Source of the DNA: Octopus sinensis
Taxonomy: Eukaryota
Assembly (NCBI RefSeq): GCF_006345805.1
Contig: NW_021835293.1
Coordinates: 1 to 41,941 of the forward strand
Direction: 5' to 3'
DNA: 41,941 nt
Positions 118 to 37,500 of the stretch are shown piece after piece (within the stretch, counting starts at the first letter, position 1; each line of letters opens with the position of its first letter). The notes below the pieces were generated by a model. The model was not told where the DNA came from. It did not search any database and was given only the letters and a program-made list of their open reading frames with translations. The translations under genes were made by a program, and so were the position numbers.

Positions 118-129
118 TATATTATATAT

Positions 130-649
130 ATTTTGCTTTGCCAGATTCTTGATGTGAATTCGTGTGTTGAAATTGATATTGTTGTATTTGGGAATGGTCA
201 TGTTGCCAGTTTCGCCAATAAAAACACACGCCTCAGCTATATTTTATATAAATCATTTTTCGGCCAGAGTTCTTTCGTCACACTTCTGTGACCTCATCAG
301 TGGTCCTTTGCTTTCTTATTTCTTTTGTGTGTCTTTCCTTACAAATGATCAGCCATTTTGTATTCCTATTGTATTTGTCTTTATTTACGCATGCGTATAC
401 CCCTGTGTGTGTCCATGTTTAGTAAGTGTGCGTGTGTGTGGGAATGTGCCTGTATTATCAGTATACTCTGTTTATATACGTTCGTTTAATTTGTTTTTAT
501 TTATTTTGTTCATTTGTTTATACCTACTTATTTATTCACAGTCGAAATACGTTTAATATAAAATAAAGCTGGAGCAAATGAATACCAAATATATAGTGCG
601 TGTGTATTTATCGGCTAAACTGGGCAACATGACCATCCCCAAATACAAT

Positions 650-650
<1 letters not shown>
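130..650 (-). mobile_element. Fold-back, hammerhead-carrying non-autonomous element, probably derived from a Penelope-like pseudo-LTR
   Basis: Imperfect inverted repeat 181-231 vs ~597-648; hammerhead motif at 262-306 (-); homologous to 37987-38378. Confidence 0.65.
262..306 (-). ncRNA. Minimal type I hammerhead ribozyme motif
   Basis: Minus strand reads GGACCA-CUGAUGA-G-GUCACA-GAAG-UGUGAC-GAAA-GAAC-UC/UGGCC: intact core, 6-bp stem II, CCA/UGG stem I, one extra G after A9, predicted cut between 267 and 266. Confidence 0.7.
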
Positions 651-692
<42 letters not shown>

Positions 693-702
693 ATATATAT
701 AG

Positions 703-1014
703 TCTTACTCTTTTACACATTTCAGTCATGGTACTTATTCTATCGGTCTCTTTTGCCGAACCGCTAATTTTCAGGGATATAAACACCCCAACATTGCTTG
801 TCGAGCGATGGTGGGGGACAAAGACAGACACAAAGACACACACACACACACATAAAAATATATATACTTATATATATACACGGCGGGCTTCTTTCAGTTT
901 CCGTCTACCAAATCCACTCACAAGACTTTGGTCGGCCCGAGGCTATAGTAGAAGATACTTGCCCAAGATGCCATGTGGTTGGTAAGCAAGCTACTTACCA
1001 CACAGCCACTCCTG
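703..1014 (-). mobile_element. SINE family A, internally deleted
   Basis: Reverse complement of the family A head (aggagtggctgtgtggtaagtagc), body and tail, with gaps. Confidence 0.9.
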
Positions 1015-2779: not shown

Positions 2780-2789
2780 CTATTATACT

Positions 2790-2951
2790 TATGAGAGGTA
2801 TGACCACTATGTGGACAACCCTTATGCTAGAAGTAGATCGGCTATGGGCTTACCACTAAGAAATTTTATTGCGAACATTTCTTAGTGGTAAGACCATAGC
2901 GGATCTACTTCTAGCATAAGGGTTGTCCACATAGTGGCCATCCCTCTCATA
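2790..2951. repeat. 162-bp near-perfect palindrome (MITE-like)
   Basis: 75-bp arms 2790-2864 and 2877-2951 with 4 mismatches, 12-nt loop, TA at both ends. Confidence 0.9.
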
Positions 2952-4112
2952 TGTATGTATCTTTGTTGTCGTTGACGTTGCCGACATCGCTGACGCTGTT
3001 GGTGCATCGCATGTCATTATCGATCCCGTCATCATCATAAGCCTCATGACCACTCTCGATTAAATAGGAAAGGATGTTACCCTTGTTAAACTTAACCCCT
3101 GCAGCTTGCAATATACTCCACCTTTTTCTTCTTATTCAACATCCGCCAGAAATGTATTCAATTTAGTCTCCCTCATACTCTCACTCTCTCTTCCTCCCAC
3201 CTACACATTTCTTACCCATTTCCTAAGATGCGAGTAGCCGAGTTTTTTCTGCCTTTATTTTTGAATATTTTATTTTTTGTTCATTTATTTCGGGGTATTT
3301 TCTGAGAACTACGGAAGGACGTTCATTTTATGTACTTGCCCTCACACAAACTTAACCTTCGATCCAGTATGTGACCTTATTCTTCGCTATCTTGGCTGTG
3401 TTCGCCAAATCATATTCCCACACACTCCACTTGAAGCGAAGAATGTAAGGCGTAAGACGCGAACGGATGACTAATTTAGTCAATAAAATATCACAGTAAA
3501 ATAACATTAATATGGAAATTCTAGTTTGACAGCGTGGAAGTTATGCCCAGTAAAGCAGACATATACAAAAAGAAAATGGTTTTTGCTGACGAAAATATGC
3601 ATTAAATTCGTATCATGAATGAAATAAAACGTGTTGGATAATATTCGAAACTCGACGAAGTAGCCCAATGAAAAGAATGAAAGCGAAAATATAGCCATGT
3701 TGAATATTTATGTTTGCCGAAGAAAACCACGTACTTAGAGAATTAGTACACATAAAAACACTGGAATTTATTATTTGGTGGGGCGGGCAGATAGAAGGCG
3801 TTGAGAATGTCGTTGACCAAATAATATGTTGAGTTCGTATGATGAAGCAAAGTGTGAGGAGTAGAAAGAGTCTACTCTTCATGGTGTGCCAGAGGGAAAG
3901 AATCATCAAAACCAAATGTTTTTGTTTGACTGAACGAAAACTGTGTCAAATAAAGCAGCTTATCAAATAAAATTAACCAAATTGTATTTCGGAGGAAGAG
4001 AATAAATACAAATAATTATGCGACCATTTTCAGTCCACCACTCGGTACCAGAAATGAGGAATCACATCGTATGGAAGAAAGATTCAATTATTATAAGTAG
4101 ATTACATTTGAC

Positions 4113-6049: not shown

Positions 6050-6508
6050 TACTCTTTTACTTGTTTCAGTCATTTGACTGTGGCCATGCTGCAGCACCGC
6101 CTTTAGCCGAGCAACAAATCGACCCCAGGATTTATTCTTTATAAGCCTAGTACTTATTCTATCGGTCTCTTTTGCCGAACCGCTACATTACGGGGACGTA
6201 AATACATCAGCATCGGTTGTCAAGCGATGTTGGGGGGAACAAACACAGACACACAACACACACACACACCCACACACACACATACATGTATATATATATA
6301 TATATATAATATATATTATATATATATATAATATATACATATATACGACGGGCTTCTTTCAGTTTCCGTCTACCAAATCCACTCACATGGCTTTGGTCAG
6401 CCCGAGGCTATAGTAGAAGACACTTGGCCAAGGTGGCACGCAGTGCGACTGAACCCGGAACCATGTGATTCGTAAGCCAGCTACTTACCACGCAGCCATT
6501 CCTACGCC
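6050..6508 (-). mobile_element. SINE family A, full length
   Basis: Reverse complement aligns along its length with the 1931 and 24133 copies. Confidence 0.95.
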
Positions 6509-7434
6509 TATTAGCCGATTATAAATTGTTTTATTCATATCGATATCTAACATAGGCATCGAACATTACACACTAGGTAGACGATTAATCGGTTGTATCA
6601 ATACTTCTAGTACACTCACACTTAATTCATCGACGTCGGACGGACGTAAAACAAAGATGTCTTTGGAGGGATTCGAAATCACAATGTAAAGAAACCTAAC
6701 TGAACACCAGAAAGAGTATAAGCGTTCGAGTCGATAGAGTATCGAGTAAACCATGTGTCTATTTTTAATCTTTCACTTGTTTTCAGTTTTTGGATGACAA
6801 CCATGCGGCACCACCGCCTTGAAATATCTCAGTCGAAGAAATTGAAGTTAGTAATTATGCATTTAATGAAGTCTAGTACGAAGCGCAACGTGTGCAGTCT
6901 AATATTCAACGAACGGGTGGATGTTGAGGAACAGACAAAAACAAATATCTGTCTCTATATCTATAAATCTTTTTCGTATGTAATTTGTCTGAATAATTAA
7001 TTTTAGGTTGAAAGTTTGAAAAAGACTTTTGACTCATTCTGGTATAATTCCGTTTAGCCTTATACTAATGATAAATAATAATCTTGTTAATCCATTTATT
7101 GTTTTATTAATGCTTTGATCTGTCTGTGACATCATGTCGTGAGTGTTATTTTTGTAATTTTAATTTCACCTCGAAGATGTAAAGCAAGGAATGACAATTG
7201 CGCATTGGCTCTTGGCATAATAGACTGTCGATGCCGAGGCAAAGTTTAAAATATGGTTTTTAATATCTTCTTAAAAAGATTAAAGTAATAATGAGAAAGT
7301 TCTTAATAAAATTGCAGGCAAAATAAAGATATATGGAATATTCATAGAAACACCCATTCGCAAAACACACACACACACACACACACACACCACATACACA
7401 CCACACATACACACACACGCACACACGCACGCAC

Positions 7435-9579: not shown

Positions 9580-9879
9580 TGTTGTATCGCCAATTGTTAC
9601 GACGATACTTTTTTTTACATAATAGCTGAGCAGTAACAATAAAACATATAAGAAAGCAAGGTAACAACAACGTAACATTCCAGCAACTCTTCACGGACTA
9701 TACACGAACCAACAAACGATATTCCAACAAACTACCAAAAGGACTCCTAAGGACTTCTTGCGATTAAAGAATACTCAAAGAATACTCTCACTAAAGAATA
9801 CTCTCACTCAAACCGTTACCATTTATAGTCGTTCGTTAAGTCTATTCTCGCAGGGAATGCCGTGAATCTCGTCACAACA
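9580..9879 (-). repeat. 5' LTR
   Basis: TG...CA termini (tgttgtatcg...cacaaca); paralogous to 7435-7714. Confidence 0.9.
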
Positions 9880-9903
9880 CATACATACATACATACATAC
9901 ATA

Positions 9904-10283
9904 TGTGTGGTAAGTAGCTTGCTTACCAACCACATGGTTCCGGGTTCACTCTCACTGCGTGTCATCTTGGGCAAGTGTCTTCTACTATAGCCTCGGGCCG
10001 ACCAAAGCCTTGTGAGTGGATTTGGTAGACGGAAACTGAAAGAAGCCCGTCGTATATATATATATATATATATATATAGATATATATGTATGTGCGTTTA
10101 TATGTTTGTGTGTCAGTGTTCGTCCACCCAACCTCGCTTGACAACCGATGCTGGTGTGTTTACGTCTCTGTAACTTAGCGGTTCGGCAAAAGAGACCGAT
10201 AGAATGAGTACTAGGCTTACAAAGAATAAGTCATGGCCGCAGTCAAATGACTGAAACAAGTAAACGAGTGAAGAGTAAAGAGT
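9904..10283 (+). mobile_element. SINE family A, slightly 5'-truncated with an internal deletion
   Basis: Aligns with the other family A copies. Confidence 0.92.
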
Positions 10284-11584: not shown

Positions 11585-11754
11585 CGAGGAGGTCCTAAAA
11601 AGTTCCTGGCTTTGAGGGTATCGCGAAAGTCTTGGTTGGCGTTGCAATAAGTATGTCTGAATCTGAGAAGGGAATGTGTTGAATAAAATTACAAATAACT
11701 GATCCTTCTGCATTTTCTTTTACCCAAAGCCAGACATTTCTCAGCATCCCCTCG
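11585..11754. mobile_element. Short mariner-type MITE
   Basis: Imperfect TIRs cgaggaggtcctaaaaagttcctggctttg and the reverse complement of caaagccagacatttctcagcatcccctcg; TA on the right flank. Confidence 0.7.
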
Positions 11755-11767
11755 TAATGTTCTACAT

Positions 11768-12131
11768 CCGGGTTCAGTCCCACTGCGTGGCACCTTGGGC
11801 AAGTGTCTTCTACTATAGCCTCGGGCCGACCAAAGCCTTGTGAGTGGATTTGGTAGACGGAAACTGAAAGAAGCCCGTCGTATATATGTATATATATATT
11901 ATTATATATGCGTGTGTGTGTTTGTGTGTCTGTGTTTGTCCCCTAGCATTGCTTGACAACCGATGGTGGTGTGTTTATGTCCCCGTTACTTAGCGGTTCG
12001 GCAAAAGATACCGATAAAATAAGTACTGGGCTTACAAAAGAATAAGTCCCGGGGTCGAGTTGCTCAATTAAAAGGCGGTGCTCCAGCATGGCCGCAGTCA
12101 AATGACTGAAACAAGTAAAAGAGTAAAGAGT
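11768..12131 (+). mobile_element. SINE family A, 5'-truncated
   Basis: Starts at the B-box region and continues through the tail. Confidence 0.93.
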
Positions 12132-12495: not shown

Positions 12496-12606
12496 CACCG
12501 GTAAAATTTCCACTTATTCCTTATTTCTATTTTCCTAAAATTTTCGTTGCGTCTTGCAACCTTTTCAATAGTTTTGAATAAGGAATAAGTGGAAATTTTA
12601 CCGGTG
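12496..12606 (-). mobile_element. 111-bp fold-back element: perfect 30-bp inverted repeat enclosing a hammerhead-like motif
   Basis: caccggtaaaatttccacttattccttatt (12496-12525) is the exact reverse complement of 12577-12606. Minus-strand interior reads CUA-UUGAAAA-G-GUUGC-AAGAC-GCAAC-GAAA-AU-UU/UAG. Confidence 0.7.
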
Positions 12607-13002
12607 AGTGTGTTAAATTATAAAGCACAAAAAGAAGATGACTCTCCCCAGACACAACAGATTGTGTAAAGTGAAGTAATACTAAGGTGACATAACTCAT
12701 GAATATAAAATCAAAGATAACAGTATTAGCTAGGACAAATATTAATGGTTGACAATCTCCGTACGATAGACTCTCATTGTTTTCTTCAGAAGACGCAGAC
12801 AGCTAGATAGACTGACAGATTGATATAGAAATACATAAAGAAAAAGAGTATTAATGAGTGTATGTGTGAGAGTTGTAGTTGCGGCCTTAATAAGCAGACC
12901 CATGCAATCTAAGCCTTTAATATTTCATCATGTATTTAATTTTTCAGACAAGCTGAAATACACACTCGTGATCTCGATTGTAGCTCCCAAATACTACGAA
13001 CG

Positions 13003-24060: not shown

Positions 24061-24132
24061 TACTCACAATAAAATCGCTAAAATTTGCGGCTAATTTATT
24101 TCTTTTCATAATTTAAATTTGACAACCTACTA

Positions 24133-24550
24133 GGCGCAGGAGTGGCTGTGTGGTATGTAGCTTGTTTACCAACCACATGGTTCTGGGTTCAGTCCCACTG
24201 CGTGGCACCTTGGGCATGTGTCTTCTACTATAGCCTCGGGCCGACCAAAGCCTTGTGAGTAGATTTGGTAGACGGAAACTGAAAGAAGCCCGTCATATAT
24301 ATGTATATATGTATATATGTATGTGTGTGTTTATGTGTTTGTATTTGTCCCCCCCCAACATCGCTTGACAACCGATGCTGGTGTGTTTACCTCCGCGTAA
24401 CTTAGCGGTTCGACAAAAGAGACCGATAGAATAAGTACTAAGCTTACAAAGAATAAGTTCTGGGGTCGATTTGCTCGACTAAAGGCGGTGCTCCAGCATG
24501 GCCACAGTGAAATGACTGAAACAAGAAAAAAGAAGTAAAAAAAAAGAGTA
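24133..24550 (+). mobile_element. SINE family A, full length
   Basis: Complete head, body, internal microsatellite and tail. Confidence 0.95.
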
Positions 24551-36426: not shown

Positions 36427-37094
36427 CATACACACACACACATATATATATATATACATATTTAGATATATACATATATACATGCATATATGTGTTTGCG
36501 TGTGAAAGTGTATGCGCGTGTGTATAGTCGCACATATACACACACGCACACACATGACTATCTCAGTGTGACTATTTATATATGTATATTTATATGCCTC
36601 TGTATATGTATATATATGCTTATATGCATATCTATCTTTTCATATAGATGTGTGTATGTGTGTGTATGTATTTGAATATTCTGGCGCTTGTGTGTATGTT
36701 TGAGTGCGTGTCTATGTGCATATGAATTAGCGTGTATACAGAATTAAGGGAGATATTAGAATGTATCATCAGGAACCAATGGAATCTAAGCATTTTTTCT
36801 GAATAATTTGGAATGGATTTGACAGAATAAGTAAAACAAAGTAGGCCAGGCTGTCACATCGTATAATTGCAACAAATTCTTTGCATTGAAGTTTTATATT
36901 CTGTTCCGAGCGTAAACTTGCGTATCAGTTCAGCAGAACGCTATTAAGTTGTGAAACCTAAAGTCTTGAAAATAATAAACACTGAAAGATTTATAAGATC
37001 ACAAATTAATACAATGTATTCTATCAAAAGAACTATCTGAGCCAATATTTATTGCGTAATTTTGAAAATGAATGTTAAATTAAATGAAAAACAT

Positions 37095-37500
37095 GGCGTA
37101 GGAGTGGCTGTGTTGTAAGTAGCTTGCTTACCAACCACATAGTTCCGGGTTCAGTCCCACTGCGCGGCACCTTGGGCAAGTGTCTTCTACTATAGCCTCG
37201 GGCCGACCAAAACATCGTGAGTGGATTTGGTAGTCGGAAACTGAAAGAAGCCCGTCGTATATATGTATACATGTATGTATGTGTGTGTATATGTTTTTGT
37301 GTCTGTGTTTGTCCCCCCAACACCGCTTGACAACCAAGGATGGTGTGTTTACGTCCCCGTAACTTAGCGGTTCGGCAAAAGAGACTGATAGAATAAGTAC
37401 TAGGCTTACAAAGAATAAGTCCTGGGGTCGATTTCCTCGACTAAAGGTGGTGCTCCAGCATGGCCAAGTCAAATAACTGAAACAGGTAAAAGAGTAAGAG
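37095..37500 (+). mobile_element. SINE family A, full length
   Basis: Complete head, body and tail. Confidence 0.95.

What the first reader, a model, noticed from the sequence alone, without database searches (positions are those of the whole stretch)
130..650. Fold-back hammerhead cassette, first of three loci sharing one architecture
Seen: a minus-strand hammerhead core with a downstream tail, and an inverted copy of that tail capping the other end. A homolog lies at 37987-38378, and an unrelated sequence with the same layout at 12496-12606. Known: Penelope-like elements carry minimal type I hammerheads in pseudo-LTRs that can be inverted. Inference: a family of tiny non-autonomous self-cleaving retroelements (retrozyme-like) mobilised by a Penelope-like RT. 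I cannot tell whether it has already been described.
Basis: partly seen in the sequence, partly recalled or inferred. Interest (0 to 1): 0.72.

Follow-up and report, generated by a model that had tools for sequence, protein, structure and literature searches.

The report
Truncated Penelope retrotransposon end with hammerhead
This is the broken-off tail end of a common protein-coding jumping gene (a Penelope-like retrotransposon), inserted as two back-to-back pieces and carrying the small, predicted self-cutting RNA motif typical of that class; it is ordinary, not a new family of mini-elements.

Summary
In detail: a minimal type I hammerhead motif lies on the minus strand (core from 300, predicted cut 267/266), with an inverted partial copy at 543-655. 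The locus is not a fixed non-autonomous cassette. It is the 5'-truncated 3' end (3' UTR plus pseudo-LTR) of an abundant autonomous Penelope-like element with RT and C-terminal GIY-YIG endonuclease, joined head-to-head to a second, shorter truncated copy. Genomic copies share two fixed 3' ends but have variable 5' ends; 7 of 29 run straight into the endonuclease frame. The 'tail' is the start of the ORF. All 22 two-armed loci in a 52-locus sample have one long and one short arm, the published PLE tail signature. Locus 2 is a sister subfamily. Locus 3 is not unrelated: it is a sister family with a U3-A8 core variant. Cleavage was not tested. This architecture is in print (Arkhipova 2013, Cervera 2014, Craig 2021, Frangieh 2024), and this scan noted it before on other DNA of this genome. 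Open leads: a 5'-end hotspot about 90 nt upstream of the cut, and an A9C core change in the best-preserved subfamily.

The parts
125..537 (-). Main arm: 5'-truncated 3' UTR and pseudo-LTR of a Penelope-like element (family A), ending at the long 3' end
   Evidence: 368/410 identical to L003, which continues into the endonuclease frame; 308/354 identical to the 3' end of L038, which follows a 314-aa open EN frame; arm limits
262..306 (-). Minimal type I hammerhead motif; predicted cut between 267 and 266; unstable helix III
   Evidence: cross-family covariation; activity untested
125..201 (-). 'Tail': ATG at 201 and first ~25 codons of the element's ORF
   Evidence: translation matches the N-terminus that continues into the long ORF in L103, L115, L117, L122
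543..655 (+). Inverted second arm: shorter 5'-truncated copy starting 4 nt after the predicted cut site, ATG at 629, ending at the short 3' end (about ATG+25); no hammerhead core
   Evidence: 100/111 identical to L003
81..131 (.). (TA)n flank, likely target microsatellite
   Evidence: 47 of 64 arm ends in fetched copies are followed by a TA run
652..701 (.). (TA)n flank; no discernible target-site duplication
37984..38158 (-). Locus 2 left arm, family B: intact motif (core from 38092, predicted cut 38059/38058), internal deletions, short 3' end
   Evidence: 155/171 identical to L092, which continues into the EN C-terminus
38154..38394 (+). Locus 2 right arm, family B: decayed motif, ATG at 38312, long tail
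   Evidence: 185/218 identical to L088
12495..12576 (-). Locus 3 left arm, family C: minimal hammerhead with U3-A8 core (from 12568; predicted cut 12538/12537); its outer end is missing
12577..12661 (+). Locus 3 right arm, family C: ATG at 12638, short 3' end
   Evidence: ORF N-terminus 55-60% identical to family A copies

Best explanation
Locus 130-650 is the 5'-truncated 3' end (3' UTR plus hammerhead-bearing pseudo-LTR) of an abundant protein-coding Penelope-like retrotransposon, joined head-to-head to a second, shorter truncated copy, likely laid down in one insertion by the element's own RT-endonuclease. Shown: the sequence identity to full-length elements, the variable 5' ends, the two fixed 3' ends inside the ORF start, the one-long-one-short rule and the TA flanks. 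Inferred from the Poseidon in vitro model (PMC11167929): the protein nicks AT-rich DNA on both strands and starts reverse transcription at two internal sites in the ORF start (about ATG+25 and ATG+80), one for each arm. Both cDNAs stop early and are joined, often by microhomology. The hammerhead is a passenger from the master element's pseudo-LTR, where it would cut multimeric transcripts weakly, as a dimer or with protein help. This copy is likely dead on arrival.
For: Genome search: 2536 candidates, 40 scored. 7 of 29 fetched copies run colinearly into the EN frame. A search with that frame gives 6028 candidates and open frames up to 1044 aa. [quoted passage not shown] Pfam RVT_1 E 0.0022 and GIY-YIG E 0.0038 for L051; ESM Atlas neighbours at 0.96-0.97 carry RVT_1, GIY-YIG and HTH_animal. 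Motif-ATG-ORF-motif-ATG units of 3.9-5.6 kb in 4 of 8 fetched long loci. ATG 135 nt after C3 opens the ORF in L115 and L122. 22 of 52 tail-selected loci are two-armed and 22 of 22 are long+short. Published descriptions match. Across families the core is kept, C3-G8 swaps to U3-A8, and stem II and position 2.1/1.1 change in compensating pairs.
Against: Both Pfam hits are below the curated cut-offs; L056 and the L007 fragment gave none. No uninterrupted full-length ORF was seen in the loci fetched. Within family A the core is not clearly better conserved than its surroundings (0.961 vs 0.932-0.939, 33 motifs, motif-selected). 5' ends are not smoothly random: 15 of 74 arms start 86-99 nt upstream of the cut, which could mark a preferred short template. 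Short head-to-tail derivatives exist in the sister family (L134, three 331-nt units).
Confidence: 0.93

Rival explanations
1. A tiny non-autonomous, retrozyme-like family that is transcribed, self-cleaves, perhaps circularises, and is copied in trans by a Penelope RT.
For: Most copies are short. RNA reads of a related species cover only the pseudo-LTR part and none of the ORF beyond the tail. Tandem mini-units occur in family C (L134, L167) and L199 joins ORF-start sequence to the pseudo-LTR. Li et al. argue retrozymes derive from pseudo-LTRs.
Against: Locus 1 has no tandem unit and only one core. Its main arm reaches 271 nt upstream of the cut into ordinary 3' UTR. 5' ends vary continuously up to the ORF. 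Reads lie equally on both strands with no pile of ends at the cut, which fits read-through of many genomic copies.
Confidence: 0.05
2. A DNA-transposon MITE whose terminal inverted repeats give the fold-back.
For: Inverted ends and TA flanks.
Against: Arms are unequal (22 of 22 long+short), 30 of 52 loci have one arm only, inner junctions vary, and the sequence is the ORF start and 3' UTR of an RT element.
Confidence: 0.01
3. The fold-back arose after insertion, by recombination or inverted duplication during DNA repair.
For: Junctions often show short microhomologies.
Against: This would not give one long and one short 3' end in 22 of 22 pairs, nor the 24-nt deletion that is present in one arm only of locus 1 without a second template or later decay.
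Confidence: 0.01

Closest known systems
Canonical EN+ Penelope-like elements with the CX2-5CxxC linker (Neptune/Nematis type; PMC8557442, passages read)
   Same: RT then C-terminal GIY-YIG, linker motif, two Cys in the GIY-YIG core and a downstream HxxxxH, pseudo-LTRs with hammerhead, heavy 5' truncation, inverted 5'-truncated copy, one-sided tail, TA bias
   Different: Tail here is about 55-60 nt rather than 30-40; long N-rich N-terminal region; clade not placed on a tree
Adineta vaga Penelope families (PMC3846280, passages read)
   Same: Pseudo-LTR includes the first codons of the ORF, extended by the tail on one inverted arm; head-to-head inverted pseudo-LTRs; solo pseudo-LTRs; N-rich inserts in the ORF
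   Different: Low copy number and 8-10 bp TSDs there; thousands of candidates and TA flanks here
Minimal PLE hammerheads (PMC4209133, parts 1-2 of 4 read)
   Same: Unpaired base after position 9, G10.1-C11.1, long stem II, short stem I, vestigial helix III, mostly single motifs of truncated PLEs, opposite-strand pairs 100-700 bp apart, U3-A8 variant
   Different: Family A loop 3 is AA, so helix III is not fully palindromic; one subfamily has C at position 9
Poseidon of Anolis, PAc (PMC11167929, parts 1-2 of 4 read)
   Same: Two 3' ends inside the ORF start define the tail; AT-rich targets; hammerhead in the pseudo-LTR; no RNA-seq ends at the cut site
   Different: In PAc the ORF starts inside the ribozyme; here it starts 99-135 nt after C3; different clade
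Metazoan non-LTR retrozymes (PMC7229834, passages; bioRxiv 10.64898/2026.07.22.740005, part 1 of 5 and passages)
   Same: Type I hammerhead, a few hundred bases, Penelope link
   Different: Defined by head-to-tail tandems and circular RNAs; locus 1 is an inverted pair of truncated fragments

Membership tests
EN+ Penelope-like element | Single ORF with RT and C-terminal GIY-YIG endonuclease in the parent element | tested here: met
   889-907 aa frames with YVDD and GIY-YIG-like end; Pfam E 0.002-0.004, below cut-offs; Atlas neighbours; absent from the window copy itself (no window hit)
EN+ Penelope-like element | Partial tandem forming pseudo-LTRs that include the ORF start | tested here: met
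   L156, L158, L159, L162; ATG in pseudo-LTR opens the ORF
EN+ Penelope-like element | Variable 5' truncation with adjacent inverted truncated copy | tested here: met
EN+ Penelope-like element | Tail extension on one end only | tested here: met
   22 of 22 two-armed loci long+short; locus 1 likewise
EN+ Penelope-like element | Minimal hammerhead motif in the pseudo-LTR | tested here: met
Neptune/Nematis type | CX2-5CxxC linker before the GIY-YIG domain | tested here: met
   CX4CxxC read in L051-L060 translations; definition
Neptune vs Nematis clade | Placement in an RT phylogeny with reference PLEs | not tested
   no reference PLE proteins were fetched
Naiad/Chlamys | N-terminal endonuclease, no canonical hammerhead | tested here: not met
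   EN is C-terminal and the motif is present
Non-LTR retrozyme | Head-to-tail tandem of hammerhead-bearing monomers | tested here: not met
   no such array at the locus; seen only in family C derivatives L134, L167
Non-LTR retrozyme | Self-cleaved linear and circular RNAs | tested here: inconclusive
   fragmented, apparently unstranded reads of a related species, about 6% of each run; no end pile at the cut
Hammerhead ribozyme | Core nucleotides and helices I, II, III | tested here: met
   core complete; stem II -6.5 and stem I -5.1 kcal/mol; helix III unstable (+1.4 as self-duplex)
Hammerhead ribozyme | Self-cleavage | not testable with these tools
   needs an in vitro assay
MITE | Symmetric terminal inverted repeats, uniform length, TSD | tested here: not met

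The most novel reading that the evidence does not exclude
The thousands of short copies are a genomic record of the Penelope cycle. RT starting inside the ORF start copies only the mRNA leader, so 5' ends mark the transcription start (15 of 74 arms at -86 to -99) and in vivo ribozyme cleavage (arm starts step up from 11 in -60..-1 to 24 in 0..+31). The best-preserved subfamily, with C at core position 9 in 31 of 33 motifs, would be a natural ribozyme-weakened control.
Probability: 0.2. Interest if true: 0.5.

Novelty: new member of a known kind. Interest (0 to 1): 0.2.

Why it matters
As it stands it is a textbook Penelope-like insertion; its use is annotation: such fold-back hammerhead fragments should be filed as PLE ends, not as MITEs, SINEs or retrozymes. 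The family set is a good natural test bed for an open question, whether PLE hammerheads cut in vivo and matter for transposition, because three sister families differ in the core (C3-G8, U3-A8, A9C) and copies are numerous enough to map 5' ends precisely.

Tried and rejected
Rfam scans: no hammerhead (150 of 224 rows shown). Free folding of the monomer does not give the hammerhead fold, z -1.6, as expected with a vestigial helix III. Pfam on the 192-aa L007 fragment: nothing. PDB sequence search: nothing meaningful. Core versus flank conservation within families: not distinguishable in family A; the higher contrast in B and C (flank 0.76, 0.57) comes from truncation just upstream, so I did not count it. 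Cleavage footprint: 2 of 74 arms start exactly at the cut and 6 within 2 nt (nominal P 0.005 for that one window), but windows at -99, -97 and +15 hold 6-7 arms and several junctions have microhomology, so it is not shown; 8 of 60 loci were dropped as query or duplicate before this count, and one arm per strand was kept per locus. The control sample from the A9C subfamily returned nothing because common words are skipped. No RNA holder listed for the stretch. The sequence look-up of earlier findings was empty. One search's family A rows were spoiled by TA matches and redone. TSD: none discernible in TA flanks. No homolog search in the large protein databases was run.

Full report
Observation. 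The window is a contig of a 2.72-Gb animal genome, rich in microsatellites; earlier scan notes call it octopus, which I did not establish. On the minus strand, 306-262 reads as a minimal type I hammerhead: core CUGAUGA at 300-294, an unpaired G, stem II, GAAA, a two-pair helix III and a predicted cut between 267 and 266. An inverted partial copy lies at 543-655. Locus 2 is homologous (78% over the tail) with one intact and one decayed motif. Locus 3 is a strong hairpin with a U3-A8 motif at 12568. The descriptor finds 3 motifs against a mean of 0.01 in 100 simulations, though it was written after seeing them. Rfam reports no hammerhead.

What it is. A search of the genome with 135-330 gave 2536 candidates, of which 40 were scored and 29 other loci fetched. 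These share their 3' ends but start anywhere from 34 to more than 598 nt upstream of the cut. Seven of 29 continue into an endonuclease frame. That frame finds 6028 candidates, with open frames up to 1044 aa. [quoted passage not shown] Pfam gives RVT_1 (E 0.0022) and GIY-YIG (E 0.0038) on L051, both below cut-off, RVT_1 only on L052 and nothing on L056; Atlas neighbours agree. Four of 8 long loci have the layout motif-ATG-ORF-motif-ATG, 3.9-5.6 kb per unit. The main arm of locus 1 is 90% identical to L003 and 87% to L038, both ORF-linked. So the locus is the 3' UTR and pseudo-LTR of an autonomous Penelope-like element.

The tail. The 'tail' begins with an ATG (201 on minus, 629 on plus) and encodes the first codons of the ORF; in L103, L115, L117 and L122 the same frame continues into the protein. 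3' ends fall at about ATG+25 or ATG+77-85. In a sample chosen by the tail alone (52 loci after dropping 8 query or duplicate loci), 22 were two-armed and all 22 had one long and one short arm. Locus 1 follows the rule. 47 of 64 arm ends are followed by a TA run.

Mechanism. PMC11167929 (parts 1-2 of 4 read) shows that a Poseidon protein cuts both strands of AT-rich DNA and starts reverse transcription at two sites inside the ORF start, which define the tail; its ribozyme cut only with protein present, cutting was not needed for insertion in vitro, and no RNA-seq ends mapped to the cut. Applying this here is inference: each arm is one cDNA from one of the two start sites, both truncated and joined head-to-head. 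PMC3846280 proposes self-priming on an antisense template instead (passages); my data do not separate the two.

Is the ribozyme real? Within family A the core (0.961) is barely above stem, loop and flank (0.932-0.939) in 33 motif-selected copies; this is expected for copies that decay neutrally and is no support. Between families the structure is kept: C3-G8 in A and B, U3-A8 in 52 of 58 motifs of C, compensating changes in stem II, and A-U versus G-C at 2.1/1.1. This suggests selection in master elements. Against a strict need, the subfamily with the longest open frames has C at position 9 in 31 of 33 motifs. Helix III is unstable even as a self-duplex, so monomer cleavage should be poor, as PMC4209133 found for this class (parts 1-2 of 4). 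RNA reads from three runs of one study on a related species (about 6% of each run) cover the family on both strands at mostly 85-95% identity, only over the pseudo-LTR and tail, with no end pile at the cut; this fits read-through of many copies and says nothing on this locus.

Loci 2 and 3. Locus 2 belongs to sister subfamily B (2218 candidates); L092 links it to the endonuclease end. Locus 3 belongs to family C (943 candidates). Its motif lies about 104 nt before an ATG whose frame is 55-60% identical to family A copies, and L166, L169 and L174 have endonuclease sequence upstream. Family C also has short head-to-tail derivatives (L134, three units of 331 nt), the only retrozyme-like structures I saw.

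Comparison with what is known. PMC8557442 (passages) lists heavy 5' truncation, an adjacent inverted truncated copy, a one-sided tail, pseudo-LTR hammerheads and TA bias as PLE traits, and assigns the linker motif to Neptune and Nematis. PMC3846280 describes pseudo-LTRs holding the first ORF codons, extended by the tail on one inverted arm. PMC2377424 shows inverted repeats of variable size in Penelope (passages). PMC4209133 reports single and opposite-strand minimal motifs from truncated PLEs and the U3-A8 variant. Retrozymes are defined by tandems and circles (passages; part 1 of 5). Searches for octopus with hammerhead ribozyme (4 of 5 listed) and octopus with Penelope (15 of 20 listed) showed no paper on this family in their listings; PMC13282606 counts Penelope-like families without mentioning ribozymes in the main text (passages). 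Repbase, Dfam and supplements were not seen, so the family may already be named. The scan noted the same two-armed design on other DNA of this genome.

Leads. 5' ends cluster at -86 to -99 (15 of 74 arms), at a motif that resembles the YY1 site of LINE-1 promoters (recalled, not from a call), and step up at the cut site (11 arms in -60..-1, 24 in 0..+31). Only 2 of 74 start exactly at the cut, other 5-nt windows hold as many arms, microhomology blurs junctions, and RT stalling at the structure could give the same step. The control sample failed. These remain leads.

Verdict. Real feature, known kind: a 5'-truncated, two-armed insertion of a Neptune/Nematis-type Penelope-like element with a minimal hammerhead motif. 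Confidence 0.93, interest 0.2.

Noticed in passing
L045-L060, L101-L123, L156-L163 (e.g. L158:1498): The subfamily with the longest open frames has C instead of the conserved A at core position 9 in 31 of 33 motifs; reads of a related species have A there in nearly all cases.
   Followed up: partly
L134:1100-2100 (G000:C2:192752100-192753100); also L167, L199: Three head-to-tail units of 331 nt made of the U3-A8 pseudo-LTR plus about 70 ORF codons: a retrozyme-like mini-tandem derived from family C.
   Followed up: partly
window about 353-366 (minus) and homologous sites in copies: Hotspot of 5' ends 86-99 nt upstream of the cut (15 of 74 arms), candidate transcription start or RT stop.
   Followed up: partly
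family C copies L127-L155, L209-L238: Many arms start 38-46 nt upstream of the cut, at a small inverted repeat in the stem I 5' strand, which may drive fold-back joining.
   Followed up: partly
window 2783-2958: A 176-nt near-perfect hairpin (weak MIR2670 match, below gathering score); may be another two-armed element.
   Followed up: no
window 731-982, 6115-6514, 9870-10236, 11698-12038, 24113-24473, 37075-37434: Several copies of a SINE-like dispersed repeat, 83-96% alike.
   Followed up: no
L052:1544-2677, L056:3148-5607: Long asparagine-rich stretch in the N-terminal part of the element's ORF, as described for Adineta Penelope ORFs.
   Followed up: no
L053:2-940 (minus): A different GIY-YIG-like, Penelope-type frame next to the family A copy.
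   Followed up: no
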